Positions 1 through 60,016 of a stretch of 60,875 bases of DNA are shown one piece after another. Position 1 is the stretch's first letter; each line of letters begins with the position of its first letter. Under the pieces are notes generated by a model. It was not told the origin of the DNA and did no database searches. It saw only the letters and a program-made list of their open reading frames with translations. The position numbers were made by a program, and so were the translations under genes. Source of the stretch: a virus. Taxonomy: Duplodnaviria > Caudoviricetes. Location of the stretch: positions 1-60,875 of IMG/VR virus record IMGVR_UViG_3300043395_000730; one strand, written 5' to 3'.

Positions 1-15
1 ATCATCGTTTGTCCT
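1..15 (+). repeat. Terminal direct repeat / assembly overlap, copy 1
   Basis: ATCATCGTTTGTCCT at 1-15 is identical to 60861-60875. Confidence 0.95.
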
Positions 16-53
16 ACCTTGTGGACAACACCCTTCATTTTAAAACTACTCAT
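1..53 (-). CDS. 5' part of the DUF3127-like gene spanning the circular junction
   Basis: ATG at 53 gives MSSFKMKGVVHKVGQTM, continuing in frame into MIVSEKFSKRELV at the window end. Confidence 0.85.
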   Translation of the reverse strand, partial: MSSFKMKGVVHKVGQTM

Positions 54-56
54 ACT

Positions 57-296
57 TTATTTGATTTTAATTAATAATTTCAACAGAGCCACTATCTCTG
101 CCCTCGTCCTCACCGTCGTTAGAACCACACTCTGATCGGGCCCTATCCTCTCCATGTCTTGATTTACGAACACAACGACCTCTTTGTCATGTAGGTCGAC
201 AGTTAGGCTTAGTGTTGGCTCGTACTTAAGTTCATATCTGTTACCTGTCAGCTCAACGAAGCCCTGCTCTAGTAACCACTCTTTTGTTATGTCCAT
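57..296 (-). CDS. Hypothetical protein
   Basis: 79-aa ORF tightly packed in the - strand operon. Confidence 0.7.
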   Translation of the reverse strand: MDITKEWLLEQGFVELTGNRYELKYEPTLSLTVDLHDKEVVVFVNQDMERIGPDQSVVLTTVRTRAEIVALLKLLIKIK

Positions 297-1024
297 CTCT
301 CTCTGTATTTGTTAGCGTATTCAATAGCGATGTCTAACCGCTCGTCTATCTTTTTTATGTCATCAACTGTAAGCTCAACTGGAACTATCACTTGTCGTAA
401 TGAGTCTGGAAGATTGTCCATGTAGTGAAGCTCGTCACCCTCACCCTCTGGTATCAACTCCTCTGGAGTGTTTACAAGCATGTACGCTATGCGACCATAA
501 CGCCAGTGATTACCTGTTGATTTTGTAAGCATAAATAGGTATAACTTTACTTGCCACTCGTACTGCGGATTACGTGCCTTCTCTATGGTCTTTGGAAATG
601 TCTTCTTTGACCATGGAGACTTTATGTCAACAACAATACCATCCCCAGTAATGTCTGGATGCCCCGAAAGTAATCCATCTCTATACGTTAGATGCATGTC
701 AGACTTCTCATGGCTCGTAAAGTTTATACGATTGTACAACTCAATCGCCTCACCCTCAACCATTGTACCCTTTGTCGTCTCACGACTACTGAACGATGGC
801 TTATAACCCCATAACTCTTGCTCTACAGCCTCCTCTATGAGCGTCCTTGCGCCAGCAGATAACTCGTATGGAGCATCCCTCTTTTGTATTAACTCATCTC
901 TTGTTATGGCTTGCTTCTCCGTTAACTTTATCTTCTCCATTAACGAGTCAAGTGTCTCTTGCTGTTTTAACGTCAAACCAGCATCACCCAAAAACAATGG
1001 ATACGCAGACGAACACCTAAACAT
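287..1024 (-). CDS. YqaJ/lambda-exonuclease-like PD-(D/E)xK recombination exonuclease
   Basis: Motifs G..E..A, HPDI, VDIKSPW, YEWQVKLY. Confidence 0.75.
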   Translation of the reverse strand: MFRCSSAYPLFLGDAGLTLKQQETLDSLMEKIKLTEKQAITRDELIQKRDAPYELSAGARTLIEEAVEQELWGYKPSFSSRETTKGTMVEGEAIELYNRINFTSHEKSDMHLTYRDGLLSGHPDITGDGIVVDIKSPWSKKTFPKTIEKARNPQYEWQVKLYLFMLTKSTGNHWRYGRIAYMLVNTPEELIPEGEGDELHYMDNLPDSLRQVIVPVELTVDDIKKIDERLDIAIEYANKYRERWT

Positions 1025-1502
1025 CGCTCAATTGTTTTAATTGGTCGTCAGTTAGGCTGTACTGCTTTTGTATCTTCTCAATTGTCGTAGAGCCAGCCTT
1101 TACTGCGTTGACTGCGCTATCAAGCTTATCGTCTGGCAGTTGAGGTAGCTTAGGCAATGGACGTGTGCTGAATCTCAGCGCGTCGACCATGCCTTGAGGA
1201 CTCTTTACCTTCTCGGTTGACAAGACTATCTGCTTGTTTAAGTAGTCGTTAAAGTCGAAAGATCCAAAGAACGTCTCTAGCCTTTTAAAGTTTGATCGGT
1301 TGCAAACCATAGGCTTGTCAAACTCTTTTAACTTTACGAAGACCTTGTCCTCCTTACCCATCTCACCAACAAAGGTGTCTTGGTATATCTTATCGATCGT
1401 TACTAACTTCTGTTCGTACTTCCCATTTACCTCCAAGTCCCATGCTCCGAGGTACTTGTTGTCTTTCATTAAATTTCTCCAGTGTGCCATAATTTTATAC
1501 AA
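1017..1502 (-). CDS. Phage protein, possible single-strand annealing partner of the exonuclease
   Basis: Overlaps the exonuclease start; KYLGAWDL motif; function inferred from synteny only. Confidence 0.5.
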   Translation of the reverse strand: MYKIMAHWRNLMKDNKYLGAWDLEVNGKYEQKLVTIDKIYQDTFVGEMGKEDKVFVKLKEFDKPMVCNRSNFKRLETFFGSFDFNDYLNKQIVLSTEKVKSPQGMVDALRFSTRPLPKLPQLPDDKLDSAVNAVKAGSTTIEKIQKQYSLTDDQLKQLSDV

Positions 1503-1875
1503 ATTTATTTAACTTTTGTTTATAATCCAACAGTTTGTCGGAATATTTTTTTATTCGCTTATCTATTGACTCTTTGTCATCAGTGTACTTTATGCAGTGA
1601 TGTAGCCAGTCAATACGCTCCTCAATGGCGTCTATGTTTACCTTTAGACAGCCTACATACCAACCATACTCAGTGAAGTAGTACTCTTGTATATCGTTAA
1701 TCAGCCTGTACTTCTCGCTGTTTGTCATGGTGTCGTGTATGACGATGCGACCGTCCTTCTCATAACGCTCTATCTTTACACCCATGTCAAGATACCATCT
1801 TGTCGTTGGGTTGTCTTCGTCTCCTGTCCAAAACAATGAGACGGTTCTCTCTAACTCTTCCCAAGCCTTTATCAT
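1495..1875 (-). CDS. Hypothetical protein
   Basis: 126-aa ORF overlapping both neighbours. Confidence 0.7.
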   Translation of the reverse strand: MIKAWEELERTVSLFWTGDEDNPTTRWYLDMGVKIERYEKDGRIVIHDTMTNSEKYRLINDIQEYYFTEYGWYVGCLKVNIDAIEERIDWLHHCIKYTDDKESIDKRIKKYSDKLLDYKQKLNKFV

Positions 1876-2288
1876 GGTAAGTACCCGTAATTTAGTCCGT
1901 CAACTCTAAAGTAGAATGTCTCCTCTTTTCGATGGTGAAACAAGTAGATGTCGTACTTGTTGTTGTCGTTCTCCACAACAGCCATCGTTTTGACGTGGTG
2001 CTTGGTCTCCCAACTATGGAAGAAAGGAACTGGGCTCTTGGAGTTGAATATCATCGTGTCCAAGATGTAGTTGTTGTTAGTTAGAACTATAGTTAAAATT
2101 ACTCGTATGCGTTGTTTTGAGTAGTTACGCATTACACGAGTGTGCTCGTTAACTTTCTTGAAGTTCCTGCTGTCTACCGACCATTGCGCATCGGCAACGA
2201 ACGGTGCGGTCATCAAAGCGACCGTTAGAATAATCGATTTATACATAAGATTGAAATTAAGAGTAAAAAAATCATAGCGATGTACCAC
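1872..2288 (-). CDS. Hypothetical exported protein (true start probably MYKSIILTVALMTAPFVADAQ)
   Basis: Signal-peptide-like segment ending A-D-A/Q, typical of Bacteroidota secreted proteins. Confidence 0.55.
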   Translation of the reverse strand: MVHRYDFFTLNFNLMYKSIILTVALMTAPFVADAQWSVDSRNFKKVNEHTRVMRNYSKQRIRVILTIVLTNNNYILDTMIFNSKSPVPFFHSWETKHHVKTMAVVENDNNKYDIYLFHHRKEETFYFRVDGLNYGYLP

Positions 2289-2510
2289 ACCACTAAGAAT
2301 AGAATTAATTTAAGTCGCATAGATTTATAGGTATTTGGACAACGGACTCCTCGTAACTTATTATTATAACTCCAAGCATAGCTGACAGCATATCTATCGT
2401 CTCGTCTATGTCGCTTGTCGTTACCTTTATAACGTCACCTGTGTCCGTTGTTACGTTATACGTTTTCATTTTTAGCTTTTATAACTCGCATGTATAACTC
2501 CCAATTGAAG

Positions 2511-2741
2511 TTAGTCCACCACTGATAGTTTTTCATCTTTTATTTTTTTTATGGTTGCACATATCTCATAGTACTCAAGGTCAAGAGCGCATTCAGACAG
2601 CTCGTCTAACATCCGCTCGAAGCTCTCTCTTTGTCTTGAGTCATAAGCTGACAATAGGACGTCATGCCTATCGTCGGGAGTCATCTCCCTTAACCTCTCC
2701 ATGGTGTCCATGAAGATGTCTTTAAAAATTTGTTCTAGCAT
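2511..2741 (-). CDS. Hypothetical protein
   Basis: 76-aa ORF in operon. Confidence 0.65.
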   Translation of the reverse strand: MLEQIFKDIFMDTMERLREMTPDDRHDVLLSAYDSRQRESFERMLDELSECALDLEYYEICATIKKIKDEKLSVVD

Positions 2742-2965
2742 AGTATGATTTTTACATTAGTAAATTTAATTATTATTTCGCCAGTTAGGTTGTCTATCTC
2801 AGACCGATGGGCATATCGTTTGACTAATTGGCTGTCGTACTTGGTGCGTAGTATCAAACGTCCTCCAATGACTTTTGAACTGCTGAACTTTATGTGGCTA
2901 AGACCTAAGTTCTCGATGGTAAATTTTATTATCTCGTTCATTTTGTATCGCAAAAAATTCCACAT
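2735..2965 (-). CDS. Hypothetical protein (start probably MNEIIK near 2941)
   Basis: ORF coupled to neighbours. Confidence 0.55.
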   Translation of the reverse strand: MWNFLRYKMNEIIKFTIENLGLSHIKFSSSKVIGGRLILRTKYDSQLVKRYAHRSEIDNLTGEIIIKFTNVKIILC

Positions 2966-3675
2966 TCATAAGACCGCATACCTCTACCCTTAGCATCCTC
3001 GGGTAACTCGTCAAGAAATATACGTTTGCCTTTATATCTAACTAACCGAACACCTAAACGACGGCTCTGCTCTGCCCTCTCTCTAAATTGTTCGGGATGC
3101 ATTCTCCTCACATGATTCCAATACGTTGGAGATGTAGCCTTTACACAGCCTATGCAGTTGGCGTTGGGATATCCCATCATGTATACCCTAGGTAGGGTTA
3201 TACCTGCACTAGTTATGATGTCAAAACACATCTGCTTTGTTATCCCTTCGTCAATCAATACTGGCAAAACATTAGACCTCTCGTACTTGACAAAACGCTC
3301 ATGCCTGTCTACCTCGTCTGCCGTGAATCCTAACACATGGTAGTCTATGTAGTTTGATTTCTCAAACTCGTACCTAGCTCCCTTCTTTAAGACAAGTGTA
3401 CACGGAGCACCATTTATACCGCTCATGTACTTACGCTTGTCCCATATGTCAACAGCTGATGTTGTGTTGGCTGTGCTGTTGACTGCTTGGATGATTGGTT
3501 GACCTATCCATTTTGATACGTCATCAAGAAATCTTCGGTTGTCAGAGTCCTCCTCGTCAACAGGATTGTTTACGATTAGAATGTTGTGAGTGTCTCCATA
3601 TTTCTCTATTGTCCGTTTTGAAGCTACGGCACTAGCGGCTCCACATGAGAACCATACGACAATTGTTTTTTTCAT
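2938..3675 (-). CDS. PAPS-reductase-like adenine nucleotide alpha hydrolase (PP-loop) protein with Cys clusters
   Basis: N-terminal VVWFSCGAASAV PP-loop-like motif; APCTLVLK, NANCIGCVK, C-terminal ECGIFC. Confidence 0.65.
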   Translation of the reverse strand: MKKTIVVWFSCGAASAVASKRTIEKYGDTHNILIVNNPVDEEDSDNRRFLDDVSKWIGQPIIQAVNSTANTTSAVDIWDKRKYMSGINGAPCTLVLKKGARYEFEKSNYIDYHVLGFTADEVDRHERFVKYERSNVLPVLIDEGITKQMCFDIITSAGITLPRVYMMGYPNANCIGCVKATSPTYWNHVRRMHPEQFRERAEQSRRLGVRLVRYKGKRIFLDELPEDAKGRGMRSYECGIFCDTK

Positions 3676-3677
3676 TT

Positions 3678-3962
3678 TGTGTTAAGTTTTGGGGTTTTGT
3701 GTTGACTTTATTACGACTTTGTGTTAACTTTTTCTAGTGTTTATAAGGAAAGTGTTAACTTTACAACTTTTTTCTATTTTTTAAAAAAAAAGTAATATAT
3801 ATATATAGATATAGTAGTAGTAGTAGTGTAGTATTTTTTTTCTACCAGTACGTACTAAAAGTCGTAAAGTTAACACTAAAATGGTTAATTGACTGATAAT
3901 GTGTAAGTTAGGTCGAAAAAAGTCAACACAAACTTAACATAAAGTCAACACAGGTTAACACA
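3678..3962. repeat. Inverted array of 11-bp iteron-like repeats around an AT-rich core; candidate replication origin
   Basis: TGTGTTRACTT-like units at 3678, 3698, 3720, 3751; reverse-complement units at 3867, 3920, 3931, 3942, 3953. Confidence 0.75.
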
Positions 3963-4356
3963 AATTATCTACGTAATAATTTATGTAGCTCATTCTCTGC
4001 GTGTTAGTGCCTGTTAATTGAAGCGTTGGTAGAGAAGTCACAATCATCGTGTTAGTGTCAACGATTGGTTGGCTGTTAACCATGCCGAAGAATAAGGCTG
4101 ACCGTTTGTCTTTGTGACAAGTCAGAACGGAAAGCTTTAATACCTCCCCATCGAACTCACCGAACAACATGTCGGTCGTCATGCCGTGCTGTCGGATGAA
4201 TGCCCGAACACTTGCTTCGATGTCATCGATCGATAGACAGATGTATTGTTTGGTTTGGTCAAGAGTCGTGTATCTTGACGTGTAGTTTAATTCACTTACC
4301 GAACGTCCTGTTTGGTGTAGTGACTGGCTGAATTGTTTTAGCATAATATTTAACAA
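3955..4356 (-). CDS. Hypothetical protein
   Basis: 133-aa ORF overlapping the upstream gene's stop. Confidence 0.65.
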   Translation of the reverse strand: MLNIMLKQFSQSLHQTGRSVSELNYTSRYTTLDQTKQYICLSIDDIEASVRAFIRQHGMTTDMLFGEFDGEVLKLSVLTCHKDKRSALFFGMVNSQPIVDTNTMIVTSLPTLQLTGTNTQRMSYINYYVDNLC

Positions 4357-4841
4357 TATGTTTGACGTTTTGTGTTTTCATGTTGACCGAAATATAGTTC
4401 TTCGTAAATTACGTATCCTTCTCCATATCGGTCTGTACCTATTTCTACTTCATCTTCTTTTAGATTTGTTGCACTTAGTGTGTGATAGTACCAACCTCCC
4501 TCTTCGCTACCTCCGTAGTTTTGTATTTTTAGATAGATTGTTTTTAAGTACTCCTCGGTAGTATTTATTTTGAAGATTCTCTTGATGTCTTCTAAGTCTT
4601 TTTCATTCTTTATGATAATTAAATGTTCAATATCTATTGAAAAGTATTTTGATACATCACCTGTTCCATTCCATTGCTCAATGTCTTCATTGTATAATCT
4701 AAATACTTCTGATGAATCAATTAGGTATGTTTCATTGTTACCTTGTTCAGTTATTATATAAGACTCATTAATTGTTCTCCAACGGTCATACTCATCGTCA
4801 TAATACTTGTATGACACTTTCTTTAAAAAATATTTTTCCAT
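4350..4841 (-). CDS. Hypothetical early protein
   Basis: 163 aa; YGGSEEGGWYY motif. Confidence 0.7.
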   Translation of the reverse strand: MEKYFLKKVSYKYYDDEYDRWRTINESYIITEQGNNETYLIDSSEVFRLYNEDIEQWNGTGDVSKYFSIDIEHLIIIKNEKDLEDIKRIFKINTTEEYLKTIYLKIQNYGGSEEGGWYYHTLSATNLKEDEVEIGTDRYGEGYVIYEELYFGQHENTKRQTYC

Positions 4842-4854
4842 GGCTTAATTATTA

Positions 4855-5070
4855 TTACATTTCTATTCCGTACTCTATTGCTCTCATTTCATCTATGTCA
4901 CCATCCTTGGTTAATATCCCGACCTCTATTAGTCGGGATGCCATCCGTCCGTAATGACCTTGTAGCGACCATGCACTACCATTTTTTACAAGTTCAGCGA
5001 ACATGTATACCATCTCAGCACCATCAAGCATCCCGCTCTCGTATGCAATTATTCTATCTATTGTATCCAT
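4855..5070 (-). CDS. Small phage protein
   Basis: IIAYESG...AWSLQGHYGRMASRLIEVG; 71 aa. Confidence 0.7.
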   Translation of the reverse strand: MDTIDRIIAYESGMLDGAEMVYMFAELVKNGSAWSLQGHYGRMASRLIEVGILTKDGDIDEMRAIEYGIEM

Positions 5071-5074
5071 TTTA

Positions 5075-5356
5075 TTAGTTATTATATTCGTTACCTTCTG
5101 CGTCGTACCACTCGTCCTCGTCTATTTCTTCCCACTCGGTGTAGTAGTAGTACTCCTCGTTGTAGAAGTACTCAAATATGTCCTCGTCTTCCGTTAGGTC
5201 TGCTGAACGATTGCCGTTGCAGTCTACCCAATCAAGTCCTTTTAAGTGTTCTAATAGGTGTTCATTTGTGCTGAAGTATAGTTCTCCATCACCTACCACA
5301 TATCCTTCGTTCATGCCACGTCCTGTAGCATCGCAACGTCTTGCAAATTTTTCCAT
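5075..5356 (-). CDS. Highly acidic small early protein
   Basis: D/E/Y-rich C-terminal half; AGAAACCATG start context. Confidence 0.7.
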   Translation of the reverse strand: MEKFARRCDATGRGMNEGYVVGDGELYFSTNEHLLEHLKGLDWVDCNGNRSADLTEDEDIFEYFYNEEYYYYTEWEEIDEDEWYDAEGNEYNN

Positions 5357-5496
5357 GGTTTCTAAATTATTTCTATTGATAATACGTCATAACCCTCGTA
5401 TGACATTAAACTCATTACCTTTCCTTCGTTCCAAGCTTGTACGTAAAACACGCCTTGCTTGGTTGTTACAATGTATTTATTCATGATTTCTAGTTA

Positions 5497-5844
5497 TTAA
5501 AATGTTGTATCGGGACTTGAATATCCGTAATTCTCTTTATCTTTAATCTCGTATTCTTGGTTTTCTCTTATAAAGAAAACAAATCCATTTTGTAGTTCAA
5601 TCAATCTGCCACGCTCAACTAATATAACATGGTTGGTATTTATAACTAAGTCTCTTTTATTAATTGTTTTGATACTCATAAAATTTGAATCTAAATTTAG
5701 ATTTTGTTTGGTAAAAAAGATATCCGTTTGATTTTGCGAAGTTATCCCCGTTACTGGCATAAATATAGTTATCTTACTAACATTATTGTGCTCATTTACT
5801 TTTAAGTTTTCCATTACTTTTGATTCTACTCTAATTACTCTCAT
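5497..5844 (-). CDS. Hypothetical early protein
   Basis: AGAAATCATG start context shared with neighbours. Confidence 0.65.
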   Translation of the reverse strand: MRVIRVESKVMENLKVNEHNNVSKITIFMPVTGITSQNQTDIFFTKQNLNLDSNFMSIKTINKRDLVINTNHVILVERGRLIELQNGFVFFIRENQEYEIKDKENYGYSSPDTTF

Positions 5845-5856
5845 GATTTCTAGTTG

Positions 5857-6063
5857 TTAAATTGAACATTTGTTTATCTCTCCTAAGTAGAAGTCATACC
5901 AATCGTTAAATCGGTCTTGTATCTCTTCGGTATATGTTAACACTTCAGCGTTTATGTCTTGGTACATATCATCCTCATTGTTGATGATATCTCCCGACTC
6001 TTGAAATGTTCTGATATGAGCTAACTCACTAGCTAACTCAAGCACGTTGATTGTTGTTTCCAT
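5857..6063 (-). CDS. Hypothetical acidic early protein
   Basis: 68 aa; AGAAACCATG start context. Confidence 0.65.
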   Translation of the reverse strand: METTINVLELASELAHIRTFQESGDIINNEDDMYQDINAEVLTYTEEIQDRFNDWYDFYLGEINKCSI

Positions 6064-6068
6064 GGTTT

Positions 6069-6281
6069 CTATTTTTCAGTTAAATTTTCACATGTAGCGT
6101 AGTCATATATCTGCTCAAATATTTTCTCTACTATGTATTCATTTGTTAGCGCATCGTATAAAATACCTTGAGCTGTTTCGTCATTACATTCAAATCTATC
6201 TTGAACGTCTTGAATTGTCCATAAGTTATCTACAAAATAACCTGCATCTCTTAATACTTGTTTTGCTTGTTGTACTGTCAT
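6069..6281 (-). CDS. Hypothetical early protein immediately downstream of hammerhead 1
   Basis: 70 aa; AGAAATCATG start context. Confidence 0.7.
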   Translation of the reverse strand: MTVQQAKQVLRDAGYFVDNLWTIQDVQDRFECNDETAQGILYDALTNEYIVEKIFEQIYDYATCENLTEK

Positions 6282-6299
6282 GATTTCTATTTTTTAAAT

Positions 6300-6356
6300 G
6301 GTTAAGACGGCACTTTGCCAGTGCCGTTTCGGTCAGTTAGACCTCGTCAGTTAACC
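6300..6356 (-). ncRNA. Type I hammerhead ribozyme 1
   Basis: GGTTAA-CTGACGA-GGTC(TAACT)GACC-GAAAC-GGCAC(TGGCAAA)GTGCC-GTC^TTAACC: full catalytic core and three paired stems. Confidence 0.93.
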
Positions 6357-6594
6357 TTGATTTCTTGAACCTAATCAAGTGACCTTCTTGGTAGTTTAAA
6401 AGGTCGTCTATCCTATCTCTTGGTATGGTAATCTTACCATGGATTGGATGGTTGATTTCGTTGATGCCAACGAATTGCTTGTTGCGAATCAATTGCTCTC
6501 GAACTGATAGTCGTCTTGTAGTTCCACTCGTCTCGTTGAAACCTACGTTTATTTTACCTGTTTTCATATGGTTAAAATTAATGTGCGTTACCAA
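6337..6594 (-). CDS. Hypothetical early protein (true start probably MKTGKINV); 3' end overlaps hammerhead 1
   Basis: ORF track; TAA stop lies in ribozyme loop II. Confidence 0.6.
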   Translation of the reverse strand: MVTHINFNHMKTGKINVGFNETSGTTRRLSVREQLIRNKQFVGINEINHPIHGKITIPRDRIDDLLNYQEGHLIRFKKSRLTDEV

Positions 6595-6617
6595 GTCGCA
6601 CCCCTTGTTTTGTTATT

Positions 6618-6893
6618 TTACGCGAAAATCTCGCCTTTCATCTTTTTATACATAAAGCATTTCTCAAATCTTGAAGGAATCAAATTAAATAAATCAATTC
6701 TCTCTTGCTTCATCTCGTTTCCAAATCTCGCCATCAAGCGTTGATGCCAATTTTCTTGAGTTTCTTTTGACCTATTAAACGGATTTCCTTCCTCTGCAAA
6801 CTTAGAGCAATACTTGTAATAAACATCAGAGTAGATGTAACCTTGAATGTCCATCATATTTGATGCGTTTTCGATTTTTTCTATTGTTTTCAT
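6618..6893 (-). CDS. Hypothetical early protein
   Basis: 91 aa; AGAAATCATG start context. Confidence 0.65.
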   Translation of the reverse strand: MKTIEKIENASNMMDIQGYIYSDVYYKYCSKFAEEGNPFNRSKETQENWHQRLMARFGNEMKQERIDLFNLIPSRFEKCFMYKKMKGEIFA

Positions 6894-6898
6894 GATTT

Positions 6899-7039
6899 CT
6901 ATTTATTATATACCTCATCCAATTGGTAGCCGTAACGCTTCTGCATGTAAGCTACATAGTTATTAAAATGTTGTTCGTTCTCAAAGTCCTTCGTAATGAT
7001 TATCTGCTCTCTACGATGGTTAAAAAATACTAGTATCAT
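6899..7039 (-). CDS. Small ORF, 46 aa (MILVFFNHRREQIIITKDF...)
   Basis: Translated by hand; ATGA overlap with the upstream small ORF. Confidence 0.55.
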   Translation of the reverse strand: MILVFFNHRREQIIITKDFENEQHFNNYVAYMQKRYGYQLDEVYNK

Positions 7040-7146
7040 CGCGCTCTGAATGGAATTAATAATCTCTTAGTCTTAACTAATGTTCCGTTTAGAAAGAATC
7101 CCCATACCTCGAAGTTCCCCTCAATTCTTAAAATTTTTGTGCTCAT
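7036..7146 (-). CDS. Small ORF, 36 aa (MSTKILRIEGNFEVWGFF...) downstream of hammerhead 2
   Basis: Translated by hand; TAACCATG start context. Confidence 0.55.
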   Translation of the reverse strand: MSTKILRIEGNFEVWGFFLNGTLVKTKRLLIPFRAR

Positions 7147-7163
7147 GGTTATTAAATTAAATT

Positions 7164-7222
7164 GGTTAAGACGCGTACTGGCAAAGTCCGCGTTTCGTCC
7201 ATTAAGGACTCGTCAGTTAACC
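7164..7222 (-). ncRNA. Type I hammerhead ribozyme 2
   Basis: GGTTAA-CTGACGA-GTCC(TTAAT)GGAC-GAAAC-GCGGAC(TTTGCCA)GTACGC-GTC^TTAACC; one mismatch in stem III. Confidence 0.92.
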
Positions 7223-7548
7223 TAGTAAAAGTATCCTTGATACTCACATCTTGAAGGCTCTTCATTTCTCCATGTCCACTCGTCTGAGTTTTCAACGATA
7301 TTTGGGAATATCCAATCACCATTGCTGAATGATATCTTTATCCCTTCATCTCGTGTTGATTTGCCGTTCATCTCAGCTACTAACTCGTAATAGTCCTTAC
7401 CCCCAAAATCACCATATCCGTTGTACTCATGCTCTACCCAAGTGTTTCCCTTGTTGTCCATTAGTACTACCTTCATAGTGTCCATTGAAGAATGAATGTT
7501 AGCAATTGACTTGTTTGTGTCTTGTGTTTTAAAACTAAAGAATCCCAT
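7222..7548 (-). CDS. Hypothetical phage protein
   Basis: MGFFSFKTQDT...YNGYGDFGGKDYYEL...QGYFY; stop abuts hammerhead 2. Confidence 0.75.
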   Translation of the reverse strand: MGFFSFKTQDTNKSIANIHSSMDTMKVVLMDNKGNTWVEHEYNGYGDFGGKDYYELVAEMNGKSTRDEGIKISFSNGDWIFPNIVENSDEWTWRNEEPSRCEYQGYFY

Positions 7549-7553
7549 GACGT

Positions 7554-7934
7554 TTAAATTTTAAAGATTTTTACCCCGTTAGTTACTATTAAATCGAATG
7601 TTTGTTTATCTACGTTACTTCCGTTCAAAGAGAAGAATGGGTTTACTCTTGGATTGTAAGATATCTCGTCTCCGTTCACATTAGACAACTCAACAATCTC
7701 GTATCTCTCACAAGATATCCAAGCACATCTCTCCTTGTGTATCTCACCCTTGTTAATCTTCTCAGCTCTTGTGCTAGAATTGTGTAAGTAGCATCCGTAC
7801 ATAACAATCATATGAGTAGAAGGGTTAACCAAGATATCTTTGCTACCCGATTTTATTTTAGACTTGCTTTCCAATTCGTGTATCTGCAAAAAGCCTTTGT
7901 TTACTGCTCCTAAATTTCTTCTTACTCCAAACAT
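7554..7934 (-). CDS. Hypothetical early protein downstream of hammerhead 3
   Basis: 126 aa; ISYNPR motif. Confidence 0.7.
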   Translation of the reverse strand: MFGVRRNLGAVNKGFLQIHELESKSKIKSGSKDILVNPSTHMIVMYGCYLHNSSTRAEKINKGEIHKERCAWISCERYEIVELSNVNGDEISYNPRVNPFFSLNGSNVDKQTFDLIVTNGVKIFKI

Positions 7935-7952
7935 GAGTTCTAAATTTTAAAT

Positions 7953-8009
7953 GGTTAAGACGACATCTTTTGAATGTCGTTTCGACTATTGAAGTCTCAT
8001 CAGTTAACC
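7953..8009 (-). ncRNA. Type I hammerhead ribozyme 3
   Basis: GGTTAA-CTGATGA-GAC(TTCAATA)GTC-GAAAC-GACAT(TCAAAAG)ATGTC-GTC^TTAACC. Confidence 0.93.
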
Positions 8010-8122
8010 TAAATGTAAATCGGTGGAACGTGCCCTGTTACGAGTTGATAGATGGCATATGAAATACCGAATATAACTCCAAACGCTAAACTGCTTGTCC
8101 AAACTGCAAATACTACTTTCAT
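8009..8122 (-). CDS. Small membrane peptide, 37 aa (MKVVFAVWTSSLAFGVIFGISYAIYQLVTGHVPPIYI)
   Basis: Translated by hand; single hydrophobic helix; stop abuts hammerhead 3. Confidence 0.6.
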   Translation of the reverse strand: MKVVFAVWTSSLAFGVIFGISYAIYQLVTGHVPPIYI

Positions 8123-8145
8123 GGCTATAAATTTAAATGGTTAGT

Positions 8146-8192
8146 GCCGTGCTGAGTTTCGCTCTCAGTAAATGACTCATAGTCAACACGGC
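8146..8192 (-). ncRNA. Minimal tRNA-like element (acceptor-like stem, one hairpin, T-arm-like hairpin)
   Basis: GCCGTG-T-TGACT(ATG)AGTCA-TTTA-CTGAG(AGCGAAA)CTCAG-CACGGC, followed by the same TAACCATTTAAA leader as the hammerheads. Confidence 0.6.
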
Positions 8193-9145
8193 TAAGTTTT
8201 TTTTCTTGGTGGAAGTATGGTTTAACGCGCTATACCAAAAACGAATACCGAATCACCCTCGGTAGGGGGCACTACCACCCTCAGATTTTTCGCGTCCTTC
8301 CTTTGGTTATGAATTTTCACGGCTTTTTCGACTTCTTGACTTTGAGTATGGCGCATCACTGCGGTTTATCTCTGCTTCAATCTCCTGTAAGCTTCAGTGC
8401 CGATATTAATACCCTCGGAGGGGGAGTGGCTCTTTGCTCAACGGGTCAGCCTATCCCGTGCGGTGTATTTTATAGTGCTATCGCTTTCGCACCTCGCTTT
8501 ATTAGACTCGCGGTCTCAGTCCAACTATGTGACCACGTTTGGTCGTTGATTCTGAAACAAAGTAACGGCAACTGATTGGATTAATAACAAACTTTTTGCT
8601 ATACGTTTTTAAAAATACGTGTTTATACGTATAAGGATCTAAGTGTTTATACGTAGTGATGACACAATGAGAGAGCTAGTTTATGACTGGCAAAACCTTA
8701 TTGGTATTTGGATTGATGTGAATAACATATAAATTGCAATAAATTCATTTGGGGATTTGTTTACATAGGTGTTCCAACCCCTACCCTCCAATCAATCGCT
8801 CTGAAACGTAGAACGGACGGTCGATTGGTCGATTGGTCTGCAGTTCTATTTAACATAATACATGTTATAGTACAAGTTGTGTGGGCAAATTTAAGGGTGG
8901 ATGAATTGGTCTCAGATAATAACCACCACCCCACCCCTACGCACAAGCACACCCACCCCTACACACGTGCGCGTAGCGTACATGCAGGCAGGCAGGCAGG
9001 TCGCTAGGCAAAAAGCCAAAAAGTCCGACCGAACTTTCCAAAATGCATACCCCCATGTCGATTTTCAAGTCGTTTCGGTCGATCGGGCTGGAGCGCCAGA
9101 TGGGGGTATTACCCAAAAATTCAGTATATTTACCAAAAAATATAT

Positions 9146-9391
9146 ATGCCTGGCAAAAGAAAGATAGTTATAAAGGACAACACGTATATCAGTGACGGTA
9201 AGGGTGGTAAGGTAAAGGCTCCTTGGATGGCTGGTGACATTGACGTTACCAAGACGATAACAACACCTAGGAAGACCAAAACAATCAGAGACTACTCATA
9301 CACTGATGCTGGTGTCAAGAAAACATTCCGAGACGTCACGGTAGTAAAAAAGGGTAAAACAGTCAAACAAAAAACAATTAGCCGTGGTTAA
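9146..9391 (+). CDS. Basic hypothetical protein
   Basis: First ORF of the + strand block; K/T-rich. Confidence 0.6.
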   Translation: MPGKRKIVIKDNTYISDGKGGKVKAPWMAGDIDVTKTITTPRKTKTIRDYSYTDAGVKKTFRDVTVVKKGKTVKQKTISRG

Positions 9392-9475
9392 AAAACACAT
9401 CAAACGGAAGAACACGATCAAGAAGAACTTGGATCTAATAAAAAAGAATTCATTATCTTTACAAAAAATAAAGTC

Positions 9476-9727
9476 ATGCCAAACGATAAAAAAATAAAGA
9501 CGAAAACCGTAGAACATTCTACAGCTAATAAGTTTGTAGCGGTTCCTAATCCATTCAGAACTATTAAAAAAACTCCTTCTGGTTTGCCTACAAGGTTTTA
9601 TAATGAGGTTCCAGTTAAAACAACAACAACTGTTTTTAAAGACGGTACTGTAAAAGTAAAAACAAACAAACGCATTGATCCAAATAATCCTAACGTTATA
9701 AATAATAAGAGGTGGATGAAAGGATGA
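9476..9727 (+). CDS. Basic hypothetical protein
   Basis: K/T-rich; AAAGTCATGCC start context shared with 13673. Confidence 0.6.
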   Translation: MPNDKKIKTKTVEHSTANKFVAVPNPFRTIKKTPSGLPTRFYNEVPVKTTTTVFKDGTVKVKTNKRIDPNNPNVINNKRWMKG

Positions 9728-9848
9728 CAGTAATCCTACAGTTTAGTATACCTTACGGCCTTAATGTTGGTTTTGAGTATTACAAGGCTGAGGAAGGTTT
9801 AGACAATGAGCTTCACCTAAATTTGTTAATTTTTAAAATTATGTTATT

Positions 9849-10937
9849 ATGGCATTAAAAAGAGCACCAAAGGACGTAGATCCGATAACTGGAGCTAGGA
9901 TAGCTTCAAAATCACTATATGGCAAGAAGGCTGGAAATGAGACCATATCATCATGGCCAGATGTTAGGAATATGTATAAATCTGGTAAGCTAAAGATAGA
10001 GAATCTAAAGAACTACGACAAGCCAGTAATTGACTACATCACTGGGAAAACAGATAAGATAAGTGACGTTGAGTACGATGAGCCTAGAATGTATACATCT
10101 AAAACAGCGGCAGGTGGTAGTAAAATTGATGTTCGTTTTGACTATAAGCCAGGTGGTAGTTTTTACAAAAAAGCATATGCTGCTGAGGGTAAAAACAGAC
10201 CAAAAGAGTCTGAAGGAATGGAGAGACAGTACTATGCTGGAATGGCTAGTGGTAAGATGGGTAGTTTCGGTAGTGGGGGATCTCGTTATAAAAACCCTAC
10301 TATTGACGTACCTACAGTTAAAAAGTCAGATCCAAGAGAGGACATTGGAAGAATGCCTACACTTAAGGCTAACAAAATAACTCGTAAACCAAACTTGGTA
10401 GAAAGACAGAAAGAAGAAGAGTGGACGGCCCCTTCAAAAAGAACTCCAAGAGGCGGTGAGACTGGAGCAAAATCAATAACATATTTTAAAAATAAAGGTC
10501 AAAGAGGCTACACATATGGCAAGGAGCAAAAGATGGCTGCTGCTTATTATGGTATGGGTCAAGGTGAGGGTACTGACGTTGCTAGGTATAAGAGTCCAGG
10601 AGAGCTATCTGAATACAGAAAAGAACTGAAGGGATATATAAAGGAATCAAGATCAGACAGAAAAGAAAAAACTTTGCCTGCTGAGAAGAGAGAAATTACA
10701 AAAATGATAAAATTGTATAAAGAGGAAGGCAAGCAAGCAAAACTCGGACAGAAATACATAGAGTCTCTTCCTCAAGGCCAAAGATATATGGGTGTTCGTA
10801 CATCAGATGTCAAGAGAGGTGGAAGTTTAGAGGATGTTAAAACGTCAATAAAGCCAAAGAAACCAATAAGGTTTTTCACAACAGAGGCAGTGCAGGGTGC
10901 TACAGCACAAGACTTGAAGAAAAAAACCAAAAAATAG
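9849..10937 (+). CDS. Large K/R/G-rich hypothetical protein
   Basis: 362-aa ORF followed by a terminator. Confidence 0.75.
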   Translation: MALKRAPKDVDPITGARIASKSLYGKKAGNETISSWPDVRNMYKSGKLKIENLKNYDKPVIDYITGKTDKISDVEYDEPRMYTSKTAAGGSKIDVRFDYKPGGSFYKKAYAAEGKNRPKESEGMERQYYAGMASGKMGSFGSGGSRYKNPTIDVPTVKKSDPREDIGRMPTLKANKITRKPNLVERQKEEEWTAPSKRTPRGGETGAKSITYFKNKGQRGYTYGKEQKMAAAYYGMGQGEGTDVARYKSPGELSEYRKELKGYIKESRSDRKEKTLPAEKREITKMIKLYKEEGKQAKLGQKYIESLPQGQRYMGVRTSDVKRGGSLEDVKTSIKPKKPIRFFTTEAVQGATAQDLKKKTKK

Positions 10938-10945
10938 ATAAAACA

Positions 10946-10968
10946 GCCCTCCAATCGGAGGGTTTTTT
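10946..10968 (+). terminator. Rho-independent terminator
   Basis: CCCTCC-AATC-GGAGGG followed by TTTTTT. Confidence 0.8.
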
Positions 10969-10980
10969 GTTATTTATTAT

Positions 10981-10988
10981 TATATTTG
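10981..10988 (+). promoter_or_regulatory. Bacteroidota-type -7 promoter element upstream of groEL
   Basis: TATATTTG matches TAnnTTTG. Confidence 0.7.
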
Positions 10989-11005
10989 TGTCAAAATATA
11001 ATAAA

Positions 11006-12574
11006 ATGGTAGTAAAACATGTTCATTTAGGCCAAGAAGGCCAACAAAAGCTCAAAAAAGGCATCAAGACGATCGCTGGAGCAGTCAAAAGTACATTAGG
11101 TGCGCGAGGGCGCACGGTACTAATAGAGTCAGAGCACCATGTGGGTGGTATAACAGTAACAAAGGACGGTGTAACGGTCGCTAAGTCGATAAACTTGTTT
11201 GATCCGACTGAGAACTTGGCTGTTATTATGATGCGCCAGGCTGCTGAGAAGACAGCAACGGTTGCTGGTGACGGTACAACCACATCTATAGTATTGGCTG
11301 AGGCTCTTATCAACTCTTCTGACGTACACTTATCTGACACAGACAACGTGACTGAGGTTATAAGAGAGATAAACGACCTAACAAAGGACGTTGTGGCGTA
11401 TTTAGACAAGAAAAGTAAAAAGGTAAAGGGTAAAAAGTTGGTTGATGTAGCCACTATAAGCGCAAACAACGACAGAGAGATCGGTAAGATGATCGCTAGT
11501 GCGTTCAACGAGGTTGACGTTGTTACTGTTGAGAACAGTATGACAAGCAACACATATGTCGAGATAATAAAAGGTATGAAGATCGACCGTGGAATGACGT
11601 CACCTTACTTTATCACAGACCAAAAGAAGCAAGAGTGTGTTCTTGACAACCCATACGTGTTGATATGCGATCACGAGATAAATAACTTGATATCTATCGA
11701 GAGTATATTAAAGCACTGCGTTATGAACCAAAAGCCGTTATTGATTATTGGTACGTTAGGCCAGAACGCTATGAACACATTAAACTTAAACGTGGCTAAG
11801 GGGCAGATCAAGGCGTGTAACATTCAGCCACCATCGTTTGGGTACCGCACAAAGGACCTTATGGAGGACATAGCTATCGCTACAGGCGGTACGTTCTTCT
11901 CTGAGTCTACTGGTGACGATTTGTCATTAATAACTGTAGCTGACCTAGGTCGTGCGAACCGTATTGTTGTGAGTAAGGGTATGACGGTATTTATGCCAAA
12001 CGCTGAGAGGGCTGATGCTATCGACACACAAGTTAGTCAGCTAAAGGACTCTAGATCTGAGATGTCATCCGACAAGGAGTTGCTTGACTTTACGAACGAG
12101 CGTATTGCAAACCTATCTGGCGGTGTTGGTGTTATATATGTTGGTGCCTTAAGTGACATTGAGCAGAAGGAGAAGAGAGATCGTATTGACGACGCTGTGT
12201 GTGCTGTAACTGCTGCACTAGAGGAGGGTATACTTCCAGGTGGAGGTATAGCGCTAGTTGACGCTGCATCATTCACACTACGTGGAGACAGTACTGCTTG
12301 TAAGATAATGCGTGACACTGTGATCGCTCCGTTCTATCAGATATTAATTAACGCAGGTAAGGACCCAGAGGAGATAAAGGCTAATATGTTGCCAATAGAG
12401 AACGAGGGGTATGACGTTAAGAACGAGCAGTACGGTGACATGTTAAAGCTTGGCATCATTGATCCAGCGAAAGTTACAAAGAACGCACTGTTAAACGCAG
12501 TGTCTGTAGCTACTACTATAATGAGCACAAATGCAATAATAACAAATGTAAGAGCAGATGAGAGTATTAAATAA
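11006..12574 (+). CDS. groEL: Phage-encoded chaperonin GroEL (Cpn60)
   Basis: AVKSTLG, VTKDGVTVAK, AGDGTTT, GGG and GIIDPAKV motifs; start moved to ATG 11006 after the promoter; no GGM tail. Confidence 0.95.
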   Translation: MVVKHVHLGQEGQQKLKKGIKTIAGAVKSTLGARGRTVLIESEHHVGGITVTKDGVTVAKSINLFDPTENLAVIMMRQAAEKTATVAGDGTTTSIVLAEALINSSDVHLSDTDNVTEVIREINDLTKDVVAYLDKKSKKVKGKKLVDVATISANNDREIGKMIASAFNEVDVVTVENSMTSNTYVEIIKGMKIDRGMTSPYFITDQKKQECVLDNPYVLICDHEINNLISIESILKHCVMNQKPLLIIGTLGQNAMNTLNLNVAKGQIKACNIQPPSFGYRTKDLMEDIAIATGGTFFSESTGDDLSLITVADLGRANRIVVSKGMTVFMPNAERADAIDTQVSQLKDSRSEMSSDKELLDFTNERIANLSGGVGVIYVGALSDIEQKEKRDRIDDAVCAVTAALEEGILPGGGIALVDAASFTLRGDSTACKIMRDTVIAPFYQILINAGKDPEEIKANMLPIENEGYDVKNEQYGDMLKLGIIDPAKVTKNALLNAVSVATTIMSTNAIITNVRADESIK

Positions 12575-12821
12575 ATTCCTACTAGTAAAGAGACAGCAAG
12601 ACAGCAACAACATGTCAACGACTGGTTTCATGTATGGAGCTGACGATATGAGGGAGTTACGGTACCAAAAGGCTACCGTAATCTCTTTCGGTCAAAATGT
12701 AAGCGGTGTTGAAGAGAGCAGTGAGATACTGTTCGACAAGGTAGCTGGACATGACGTATTGATAGACAACGAGAGGTTAACTGTCATTCAAGAAAAGGAC
12801 GTTGTTTGCGTTCTTCGTTAA
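12558..12821 (+). CDS. groES: Co-chaperonin GroES-like protein
   Basis: Overlaps groEL; 87 aa; ATVISFG...ILFDK..G...VIQEKDVVCVL pattern. Confidence 0.75.
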   Translation: MRVLNKFLLVKRQQDSNNMSTTGFMYGADDMRELRYQKATVISFGQNVSGVEESSEILFDKVAGHDVLIDNERLTVIQEKDVVCVLR

Positions 12822-13278
12822 CCTTAGTTATAGCCTTAGCCAGAGTCTTCTGATGGAATGGTGCGTTTTCTCTGAAAACTCTATTTCGTCTAGGTGACTC
12901 TGGTATTGGTTCAAGACCTAACATCTTTTTATATATACCGTTTATCATCTTCTTACTTTTATGTGTAAGGTTGTACACATTACTTTGACCCCAGTCTCTT
13001 TTCATCCATAGCTGTATCATACCATTTTCCTCTAGACGTCTTAACATGTTGGCATCCCAGCTCATATAGTTAAGTTGTTCGTACAGTTCTGCCCTTGTAA
13101 ATAGTTTCTTTGAGTACAGTACTAACAGTACTTCAAGCTCAATACTTGACTTTAGATCGTAGTTCACGACGGCCCATCTTTTGATCACTGGCCAGTACTT
13201 CATAAACTCAAATTCAGAGATTACACCTTGATATCTAATCTTTTTTCTCTTGTGGTGTTTGTAAATCTTTCGTTTCAT
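12784..13278 (-). CDS. Putative winged-helix DNA-binding regulator
   Basis: ELEVLLVLY...LRRLEENGMI...VYNLTHKSK MarR-like pattern; own promoter at 13298-13305. Confidence 0.55.
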   Translation of the reverse strand: MKRKIYKHHKRKKIRYQGVISEFEFMKYWPVIKRWAVVNYDLKSSIELEVLLVLYSKKLFTRAELYEQLNYMSWDANMLRRLEENGMIQLWMKRDWGQSNVYNLTHKSKKMINGIYKKMLGLEPIPESPRRNRVFRENAPFHQKTLAKAITKVNEERKQRPFLE

Positions 13279-13283
13279 TTTAT

Positions 13284-13305
13284 TATATTTGTAAAAACAA
13301 AGTTA
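13284..13305. promoter_or_regulatory. Two opposed TAnnTTTG promoter elements
   Basis: TATATTTG on + at 13284-13291; TAACTTTG on - at 13305-13298. Confidence 0.6.
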
Positions 13306-13448
13306 TGAAAAAGATCGTAGAAAAAAAGACTGGCGAAAAATACGCTAGCAAAGCTGCAAAGATGAAGCACGAGAAGTCTGAGTCTAAAAAAGAGATGATC
13401 AAGGAGTACGGCATGAAGGCCGCTATGAAGAAGATCTCTAAAAAATAA
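13305..13448 (+). CDS. Small Lys-rich protein, 47 aa (MKKIVEKKTGEKYASKAAKMKHEK...)
   Basis: Translated by hand; follows the promoter and ends 1 nt before the next start. Confidence 0.65.
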   Translation: MKKIVEKKTGEKYASKAAKMKHEKSESKKEMIKEYGMKAAMKKISKK

Positions 13449-59818: not shown

Positions 59819-59890
59819 CTGCCTAGAGTTTTTACCTATGTGGAGGCTAACCTCAGAACCCTAACTGCTGTCCACCATGAACAAATTTGT

Positions 59891-60016
59891 TGTCAGGACA
59901 GGATTCGAACCTGTATCTATGATGGGATTTCTCCTAAGTATGAGGTGTGCTTACGATTATATTTTCAAATCTTTATCACTCCATCCTATAGCGTCTACCA
60001 ATTCCGCCACCTGACT
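59891..60016 (-). ncRNA. tRNA-like RNA with Leu/Ser-type D and T arms but no canonical anticodon arm
   Basis: GTCAGG/CCTGAC acceptor, TGGCGGAATTGGTAGACGC D arm, ACAGGTTCGAATCCTGT T arm, about 75-nt interior. Confidence 0.7.

What the first reader, a model, noticed from the sequence alone, without database searches (positions are those of the whole stretch)
6309..7191. Loop III of hammerheads 1 and 2 are exact reverse complements
Seen in sequence: hammerhead 1 has ACTGGCAAAGT (loop UGGCAAA) and hammerhead 2 has ACTTTGCCAGT (loop UUUGCCA) on the same transcript. Inference: a 7-bp kissing-loop could link the ribozymes before cleavage, or link the 3' ends of two product mRNAs after it, since loop III stays with the upstream fragment. 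The neutral alternative is a hairpin-loop inversion after duplication.
Basis: partly seen in the sequence, partly recalled or inferred. Interest (0 to 1): 0.7.

Follow-up and report, generated by a model that had tools for sequence, protein, structure and literature searches.

The report
Mirror-image hairpin tips on two hammerheads
Two self-cutting RNA motifs in a freshwater phage really do carry hairpin tips that are exact reverse complements, but more distant relatives do not keep the match, so it looks more like a by-product of DNA reshuffling than a working contact.

Summary
The window is a whole 60.9-kb phage record with three type I hammerheads on the minus strand. I call them HH-A (8009..7953), HH-B (7222..7164) and HH-C (6356..6300). 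The stem III tip of HH-C reads ACUGGCAAAGU and that of HH-B reads ACUUUGCCAGU. This 11-mer occurs nowhere else in the window. None of 14,518 hammerhead pairs from different phage records reaches 11.

The kissing-loop reading gains no support from relatives.
- L144 (86-93% identical) keeps the HH-C loop but has no partner.
- The L108 type, found in five records, has neither loop.
- None of 10 HH-C-slot orthologues has a complementary neighbour.
- Closer variants in other samples keep the HH-B tip unchanged, so they give no covariation.

The match includes three identical closing base pairs and stops where the stems diverge. Relatives also carry mosaic hammerheads that recombined inside the conserved core. 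I therefore favour a copied and inverted hairpin tip, a neutral origin (about 0.55). A clade-specific kissing contact remains possible (about 0.2).

Mirror-image tips are enriched within genomes: 6 of 188 pairs against 50 of 14,518. Direct sharing between paralogues is enriched too. Of 36 earlier scan notes on hammerheads or kissing loops, the 8 shown did not describe this pairing.

The parts
6300..6356 (-). HH-C, a type I hammerhead. Stem I is GGUUAA/UUAACC and stem II is GUC-UAACU-GAC. Stem III is GGCACU-GGCAA-AGUGCC. Predicted cleavage is after C6306, 24 nt before the ATG of the 70-aa ORF (6281..6069).
   Evidence: 65.8 bits with model R1; leader length.
6312..6322 (-). Stem III tip of HH-C, ACUGGCAAAGU. 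It folds as a 5-nt loop GGCAA closed by ACU/AGU, or as the 7-nt loop UGGCAAA.
   Evidence: The same loop occurs in the L144 orthologue.
7164..7222 (-). HH-B, a type I hammerhead. Stem II is UCC-UUAAU-GGA. Stem III is GCG-G-ACU-UUGCC-AGU-A-CGC, with one G.A mismatch. Predicted cleavage is after C7170, 23 nt before the ATG of the 36-aa ORF (7146..7036).
   Evidence: 65.6 bits with R1; leader length.
7177..7187 (-). Stem III tip of HH-B, ACUUUGCCAGU, the exact reverse complement of the HH-C tip.
   Evidence: No difference inside it in the X5 and X6 rows shown, while the flanking stem positions 7174 and 7176 vary.
7953..8009 (-). HH-A, the third hammerhead of the array. Stem III is GACAU-UCAAAAG-AUGUC and is complementary to neither other tip. 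Predicted cleavage is 24 nt before the ATG of the 126-aa ORF.
   Evidence: 68.9 bits. Loop duplex energies with HH-B and HH-C are -0.6 and +0.2 kcal/mol.
6337..7146 (-). Four small ORFs (36, 46, 91 and 85/76 aa) between HH-B and HH-C. They form the mRNA fragment that would end in the HH-C body after cleavage.
   Evidence: No minus-strand terminator-like or promoter-like site between 7222 and 6298.

Best explanation
The two tips are related by descent, not by a working contact. Three type I hammerheads cut an early polycistronic transcript 23-24 nt ahead of successive start codons. Copies in one genome share an invariant stem I and core, and they exchange parts by recombination inside those conserved segments.

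The apical 11 nt of one stem III hairpin was copied to the other slot and inverted. The inversion was either a flip of the loop across the hairpin's own palindromic stem, or a template switch onto the complementary strand. The RNA hairpin still forms after such a flip, so the ribozyme is unharmed, and the complementarity of the two loops is a by-product.

Shown here: the hammerheads, the 11-nt match and its limits, mosaic hammerheads in relatives, and the lack of the partner in relatives. Inferred: the copy-and-flip event itself and its neutrality.
For: 1. The identity covers the three closing pairs (A-U, C-G, U-A) as well as the loop, and it stops where the two stems differ. Selection for kissing needs only the loop. 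Common descent explains both.

2. Hammerhead parts are exchanged in close relatives.
- L144 has a hybrid with an HH-A-like body and the HH-B downstream flank. The two genes between them are missing.
- An X5 contig has HH-A-type stem II and N7=U joined to the HH-B stem III.
- An X6 contig joins an HH-C-type 5' half to the HH-B stem III (joint 7190 to 6325, only 7 shared letters).

3. One partner survives without the other. L144 keeps UGGCAAA but has no UUUGCCA on its transcribed strand.

4. In 10 of 22 loci that carry the upstream 76-aa gene, an HH-C-slot hammerhead is present (loop types UCCAAAG, UCACAAG and UCACGAG). None has a complementary neighbour.

5. The HH-C loop belongs to a recurrent hairpin family, NGCAY-U-C-NNAA-G-RUGCN, seen in HH-A and in relatives. 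HH-B's tip is therefore the odd, derived one. No other hammerhead with HH-B's stem or tip exists in the viral collection (0 hits).

6. Reverse-complement versions of stable loops are rare: 5 anti-GNRA against 38 GNRA, and 0 anti-UNCG against 31 UNCG. That is what sporadic, short-lived flips would give.

7. In a second lineage the match is not compensated. G046 has GCGA and UCGC. Its relative G064 has GCGA and ACGC. G062 has UCGC with no GCGA hammerhead found.

8. Hairpin-bounded minute inversions with loops as short as 5 bp are documented in plastid DNA (PMC6824564, passages read).
Against: - No intermediate was found, meaning an HH-B-slot hammerhead with the tip in direct orientation.
- The outer stems and stem II of HH-B and HH-C differ, so this is not a simple duplicate. 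Either two events or an unusual inverted copy is needed.
- Mirror-image tips are enriched within genomes: 6 of 188 pairs against 50 of 14,518 (p = 8e-5). Without the window, and counting L055 once, it is 4 of 184 (p = 0.005). Selection could also produce this.
- Direct sharing is enriched less: 9 of 188 against 281 of 14,518 (p = 0.012).
- The HH-B tip shows no change in the X5 and X6 rows listed, while the stem beside it changed. This could reflect constraint, or just short divergence time.
- Hairpin flips are documented for plastid DNA. I did not look for them in the phage literature.
Confidence: 0.55

Rival explanations
1. A functional loop-loop (kissing) contact. UGGCAAA of HH-C pairs with UUUGCCA of HH-B. 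This would happen on the uncut transcript, or between the 3' ends of the two adjacent cleavage products. It could couple folding or cleavage, or tether and stabilise the fragments.
For: - The complementarity is perfect over 5-7 loop nucleotides, at -5.2 to -7.7 kcal/mol.
- It is far beyond chance.
- Both loops stay on upstream products, which follows from the anatomy.
- The HH-B tip shows no change in the rows listed for X5 and X6, while its stem varies.
- Co-resident mirror-image tips also occur in L009 (GAGA/UCUC), L050 (GCGA/UCGC) and L055. Within-genome enrichment is p = 0.005 without the window.
- There is a precedent for kissing between hairpins of consecutive units on one transcript, in viroids (PMC3185496, passages read).
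Against: - It is not maintained outside a narrow clade. L144 has one loop only, the L108 type (5 records) has neither, and none of 10 HH-C-slot orthologues has a partner.
- No compensating change was seen anywhere. The G046/G064 pair changes on one side only.
- The identical closing pairs are not needed for kissing.
- Loop III has no known role in hammerhead catalysis (established knowledge, recalled).
- Most other cases are tetraloops, which are poor kissing partners (recalled).
- The excess of inverted over direct sharing is not significant once the window is left out (OR 2.5, p = 0.13).
Confidence: 0.2
2. Pure coincidence between two unrelated hairpin tips.
For: A scan that reads many windows will meet rare matches. 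The loop counts only 5 free positions once the stem is taken as given. The heptamer TGGCAAA is not rare in the window: 14 sites against 8.6 expected.
Against: None of 14,518 between-record pairs reaches 11, and 1 reaches 10. Loop complementarity of 5 nt or more occurs in 9 of 12,313 pairs. The exact 11-mer has no third copy in 60,875 bases.
Confidence: 0.07
3. A DNA-level signal. The 11-bp inverted repeat, 866 bp apart, would mark the borders of a four-gene cassette, or would be a binding site for a protein that reads double-stranded DNA in either orientation.
For: - The repeats bracket a block of small genes whose content varies between relatives. An X4 contig lacks 358 nt, about 6550-6907.
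- Only one weak relative of the 91-aa gene was found in the viral collection: 54% identity over 23 residues.
Against: - The motif is not enriched elsewhere in the genome.
- The observed recombination joints lie in the hammerhead cores, not in the tips.
- 11 bp is short for a recombination site.
- No recombinase was linked to the repeat, and I did not search for one.
Confidence: 0.05

Closest known systems
Type I hammerhead ribozymes that flank genes in phage and prophage transcripts (Perreault et al. 2011, PMC3088659; passages read)
   Same: Several hammerheads in close proximity flank single genes or short gene blocks on a polycistronic RNA. They have the canonical core and three stems.
   Different: This set has a nearly invariant palindromic stem I (GGUUAA/UUAACC) and a conserved loop II (U-N-A-N-U). 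It recurs in at least 119 viral contigs. In the passages I read, nothing is said about complementary stem III loops. The paper's supplements were not seen.
RAGATH-1 / pseudoknot hammerhead (Rfam RF03152)
   Same: It is the best Rfam match to HH-B, including an upstream hairpin (27 bits).
   Different: The score is far below the gathering score of 56.3. The elements here have an ordinary 4-bp stem II. HH-C gets no Rfam hit at all, even at E up to 10.
Kissing complexes between complementary hairpin loops: viroid hairpin I on oligomeric transcripts (PMC3185496, passages read); ColE1 RNA I/RNA II and HIV-1 DIS (recalled, no call)
   Same: Two hairpins whose loops are complementary over up to 5-7 nt could dock. 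In the viroid model, the hairpins lie on consecutive units of one transcript.
   Different: In those systems the complementarity is conserved or built in (antisense or palindromic), and it has been shown by experiment. Here it is confined to a narrow clade and is untested.
Hairpin-bounded minute inversions ('flip-flop') in plastid DNA (PMC6824564, passages read; Kelchner and Wendel 1996 seen only in its reference list)
   Same: A loop of about 5 bp is inverted between the arms of a DNA hairpin. The stem is left intact, and the change looks like several substitutions at once.
   Different: This is documented in plastids, not in phages. Here the comparison is between two paralogous hairpins rather than orthologues, so a copying step is also needed.
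Double-hammerhead structures of avocado sunblotch viroid and newt satellite RNA (recalled, no call)
   Same: Two hammerhead copies on one transcript interact through helix III.
   Different: There, weak palindromic stems III pair to form one long helix that is needed for activity. Here both stems III fold on their own (-3.3 and -8.9 kcal/mol). An 11-bp inter-hairpin duplex would pull the arms of each stem III apart.

Membership tests
Hammerhead ribozyme (type I) | Conserved core: CUGANGA, GAAA, the A15.1-U16.1 pair, and a non-G residue at the cleavage site. | tested here: met
   All three elements carry CUGA(C/U)GAG ... CGAAAC ... GUC followed by UUAACC. These columns are invariant in 102 aligned copies.
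Hammerhead ribozyme (type I) | Three helices around the core, supported by covariation, with stem I open and stems II and III capped. | tested here: met
   15 pairs were scored. 10 show changes on both sides, and the covariation score is 0.566 against 0.119 when shuffled. Caveat: the sequences were picked with a filter that required pairing, so the 100% paired figure is by construction. Orthologue comparisons with L108 show compensated changes in stems II and III.
Hammerhead ribozyme (type I) | Match to an Rfam hammerhead model at its gathering score. | tested here: not met
   No hammerhead hit at gathering scores in the window. HH-B scores 27 bits with RF03152 (gathering score 56.3) and 20.3 bits with RF00008 (48.5). 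HH-C gets no hit at E up to 10. I read this as a gap in the models, not as evidence against the fold.
Hammerhead ribozyme (type I) | Self-cleavage at the predicted site. | not testable with these tools
   No RNA run that holds the stretch was listed.
Functional kissing-loop pair | Watson-Crick complementarity between two hairpin loops. | tested here: met
   GGCAA/UUGCC, or 7 nt if the U-A pair opens.
Functional kissing-loop pair | Complementarity maintained or co-varying in relatives. | tested here: not met
   L144 has one loop only. The L108 type (5 records) has neither. 0 of 10 HH-C-slot orthologues has a partner. The closest variants (X4-X6) give no informative changes in the rows shown.
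Functional kissing-loop pair | Physical complex, and an effect of loop mutations. | not testable with these tools
   This needs gel shift, structure probing and kinetics.
Hairpin loop inversion (flip) | Reverse-complement identity confined to the loop plus the palindromic arms, with flanks unrelated. | tested here: met
   The identity is 11 nt, made of 3 closing pairs and the loop, and mismatches follow immediately outside.
Hairpin loop inversion (flip) | Both orientations found at one orthologous site in close relatives. | tested here: not met
   No HH-B-slot copy with the direct tip was found. Two between-record mirror pairs that I checked have unrelated flanks.

The most novel reading that the evidence does not exclude
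Co-resident phage hammerheads recurrently evolve complementary stem III loops. These loops dock the structured 3' ends of neighbouring cleavage products to each other, or couple their folding before cleavage. This would give a phage a way to keep processed mRNA fragments together. The window clade would be the clearest case, with 7-nt loops. The within-genome excess of mirror-image tips (6 of 188 against 50 of 14,518 pairs) would be its footprint.
Probability: 0.15. Interest if true: 0.65.

Novelty: new member of a known kind. Interest (0 to 1): 0.3.

Why it matters
A real contact would be the first case of separate self-cleaving ribozymes on one phage transcript communicating through a helix that plays no part in catalysis. 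It would also give loop III a role.

On the evidence here, the more useful result is different. These hammerheads behave as recombination joints. Close relatives carry mosaic ribozymes and different gene cassettes between them, and hairpin tips can be copied and turned over. That cautions against reading loop complementarity between paralogous RNA elements as function unless relatives show covariation.

Tried and rejected
- **Phage GenBank collection.** blastn of 6000-8200 gave no match.
- **Homologues of the 108-aa gene upstream of HH-B.** 21 loci were found, and none has a hammerhead by model R1. They gave no HH-B orthologues.
- **Relatives of the 91-aa gene.** One weak hit only.
- **A genome-wide motif behind the 11-mer.** None found.
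- **A smoking-gun flip between orthologues.** The two between-record mirror pairs I checked (L117/L022 and L045/L062) have unrelated flanks. A list of 44 loop-complement pairs showed no same-slot flip.
- **Expression.** No RNA holder was listed, so cleavage in vivo could not be examined.
- **Relatives of a virus record.** The genome search does not draw them.
- **Limits of the data.** Pairs within a record and related records are not independent, so the Fisher p values are rough. Supplements of PMC3088659 were not seen and may list these hammerheads.

Full report
**What is there.** The window is a complete viral record of 60,875 bases. Its left arm (about 1-8,200) is read on the minus strand and holds many small ORFs. 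The rest carries a GroEL-like chaperonin, terminase, portal, a 3,702-aa ORF and replication genes.

On the minus strand the pattern CTGANGAG..CGAAAC occurs three times, against 0.01 expected. Read out, each site is a textbook type I hammerhead:
- stem I GGUUAA/UUAACC, open;
- the core CUGA(C/U)GAG;
- a 4-bp stem II with a 5-nt loop;
- CGAAAC;
- a capped stem III;
- GUC, then the cleavage site.

I call them HH-A (8009..7953), HH-B (7222..7164) and HH-C (6356..6300). Cleavage would leave leaders of 24, 23 and 24 nt before the next ATG.

Rfam does not report them at gathering scores. At a loose threshold over 6200-7300, which does not include HH-A, only HH-B gets weak hits. These are RAGATH-1 hammerhead at 27 bits and type III hammerhead at 20.3 bits. 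HH-C gets none.

The same architecture, with the same stem I, occurs in at least 119 viral contigs. An alignment of 102 copies shows invariant core columns and freely co-varying stems II and III. Those copies had been selected by a filter that requires pairing. A covariance model built from that alignment finds exactly three copies in the window, at 65.6-68.9 bits, with the next hit at 15.8.

**The observation.** HH-C stem III is GGCACU-GGCAA-AGUGCC. HH-B stem III is GCG-G-ACU-UUGCC-AGU-A-CGC. The 11-mers ACUGGCAAAGU and ACUUUGCCAGU are exact reverse complements, and the 11-mer has no third copy in the window.

Outside the 11 nt the two hairpins would mismatch at once, which I read. HH-A's loop (UCAAAAG) matches neither.

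Among hammerheads from different records, a reverse-complement match that spans both loops reaches 11 nt in 0 of 14,518 pairs and 10 nt in 1. The match is therefore real and not chance.

**Relatives.** Two close relatives were found.

L108 is 84-92% identical over 857-13,333 of the window. It stands for five records with the same three hammerheads. Its three slots carry:
- HH-A slot: GGCAU-UCACAAG-AUGCC;
- HH-B slot: GUGAC-UACGU-GUCAC;
- HH-C slot: AGCAC-UCCAAAG-GUGCU.

Stems II and III differ from the window by compensated changes. No two loops are complementary.

L144 is a 6,288-base metagenome contig, 86-93% identical.
- It keeps the HH-C loop (GGUAC-UGGCAAA-GUGCC).
- The slot before the 36-aa gene holds a hybrid: an HH-A-like body with the HH-B downstream flank. 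The two genes between HH-A and HH-B are absent.
- UUUGCCA occurs nowhere on its transcribed strand.

Of 22 loci that carry a homologue of the 76-aa gene upstream of HH-C, 10 have a hammerhead in the HH-C slot. None has a neighbour with a complementary loop.

A pattern for either tip in hammerhead context found nothing in the viral collection and only L144 in the metagenome collection. No other hammerhead shares HH-B's outer stem.

**Closest variants.** Contigs from four other runs were laid on 6200-8100. The rows shown list no change inside the HH-B tip for X5 or X6. The stem beside it changes at 7174 and 7176. One change repairs the G.A mismatch and the other breaks a pair.

- The X5 contig has an HH-A-type stem II and a U at the variable core position, joined to the HH-B stem III.
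- An X6 contig joins an HH-C-type 5' half to the HH-B stem III. Only 7 letters are shared at the joint, which is too few for an assembly artefact of 31-letter words (my inference).
- An X4 contig lacks 358 nt between the two hammerheads.

These variants show that hammerheads in this clade are mosaics that recombine in their conserved cores. They give no covariation data for the loops. Thirty-four difference rows were not shown, so small changes in HH-C cannot be excluded.

**Is it a general phenomenon?** I collected 172 hammerheads from 92 non-identical records, using whole-record searches for the multi-copy ones.

| Tip sharing of 6 nt or more | Within a record | Between records | Fisher p |
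|---|---|---|---|
| Reverse-complement, all pairs | 6 of 188 | 50 of 14,518 | 8e-5 |
| Reverse-complement, window left out, L055 counted once | 4 of 184 | 50 of 14,518 | 0.005 |
| Direct (same orientation) | 9 of 188 | 281 of 14,518 | 0.012 |

The six within-record cases are the window (11 nt), L055 (10 and 10), L009 (6), L023 (6) and L050 (6).

The excess of inverted over direct sharing is not significant without the window (OR 2.5, p = 0.13).

Loops that are reverse complements of stable tetraloops are rare: 5 anti-GNRA against 38 GNRA, and 0 anti-UNCG against 31 UNCG. Two of the four anti-GNRA loops that lie in multi-copy records have the matching GNRA loop in the same record.

In the one lineage where this can be followed, the match is not compensated. 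G046 has GCGA and UCGC, G064 has GCGA and ACGC, and G062 has UCGC without a GCGA copy.

**Reading.** Three facts point to a common origin of the two tips followed by inversion, rather than to selection for pairing:
- the closing pairs are identical;
- the identity has a sharp boundary;
- parts are exchanged between co-resident hammerheads.

HH-C's loop belongs to a hairpin family that recurs in this phage group: a U, a C-G pair and an NNAA tetraloop. HH-B's tip is the derived form.

Hairpin-bounded minute inversions are well documented in plastid DNA. I did not look for phage examples in print.

The kissing reading remains physically plausible, and it has a precedent on viroid oligomers. It fails the comparative test, and only experiment can rescue it.

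**Known or new.** Arrays of hammerheads that flank genes in phage and prophage transcripts were described in 2011. Searches for hammerhead with bacteriophage and kissing and for hammerhead, phage and metagenome terms listed no paper on complementary stem III loops. I saw listings only, apart from PMC3088659.

The earlier notes of this scan that were shown to me (8 of 36) concern pseudoknot hammerheads and other kissing-loop RNAs, not this pairing. Notes on the same window cover the array and the slot upstream of it. I checked the three hammerheads and their leader lengths myself.

Noticed in passing
L144:599-834 and 1311-1368; window 7164-8009; runs X5 and X6: Hammerheads act as recombination joints. 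L144 has a hybrid HH-A/HH-B ribozyme with two genes deleted. X5 and X6 variants carry the HH-B stem III behind HH-A-type or HH-C-type 5' halves. An X4 contig lacks 358 nt between HH-B and HH-C. Gene cassettes seem to be swapped at the conserved ribozyme cores.
   Followed up: partly
window 6300-6305/6351-6356, 7164-7169/7217-7222, 7953-7958/8004-8009: Stem I is the palindrome GGUUAA/UUAACC in all three copies and is nearly invariant in 102 aligned copies from other phage contigs, while stems II and III vary freely. After cleavage, the 5' UUAACC of any fragment could pair with the GGUUAA at its own 3'-terminal hammerhead. That would place its 5'-OH next to its cyclic phosphate. Whether this allows religation or circularisation is untested speculation.
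   Followed up: no
window 8140-8190 (minus strand): Before the first small gene (MKVV..., ATG at 8122) lies a hammerhead-like remnant followed by CTAACC and the usual leader. Model R1 does not score it. L144 has an intact hammerhead (stem III GCU-GUGA-AGC) in the same slot. The window's copy looks decayed or replaced.
   Followed up: partly
window 6281-6308, 7146-7172, 7934-7961 (minus strand): The distance from the predicted cleavage site to the next ATG is fixed at 23-24 nt. The leader is A/U-rich, and I see no obvious Shine-Dalgarno motif in it.
   Followed up: partly
window 8619-8654 (minus strand): Two direct copies of ACGTATAAACAC lie 24 nt apart, with a third partial copy. They sit in the ORF-poor region upstream of the early genes. 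A 9-nt copy of the HH-B tip (UUUGCCAGU) lies at 8694..8686 and is expected by chance about once in two genomes of this size.
   Followed up: no
window 59890-60016 (minus strand): There is a tRNA match (34.3 bits) with 67 nt where the model has 13, so it is either an interrupted tRNA or one with an unusually long arm.
   Followed up: no
L145 (G006:C1:3000-10000) and L152 (G090:C1:1-6000): Some phage contigs carry 8-9 hammerheads of this family within about 5 kb. G006 has two GAGA loops and also UCUC and CUCUG-type loops.
   Followed up: partly
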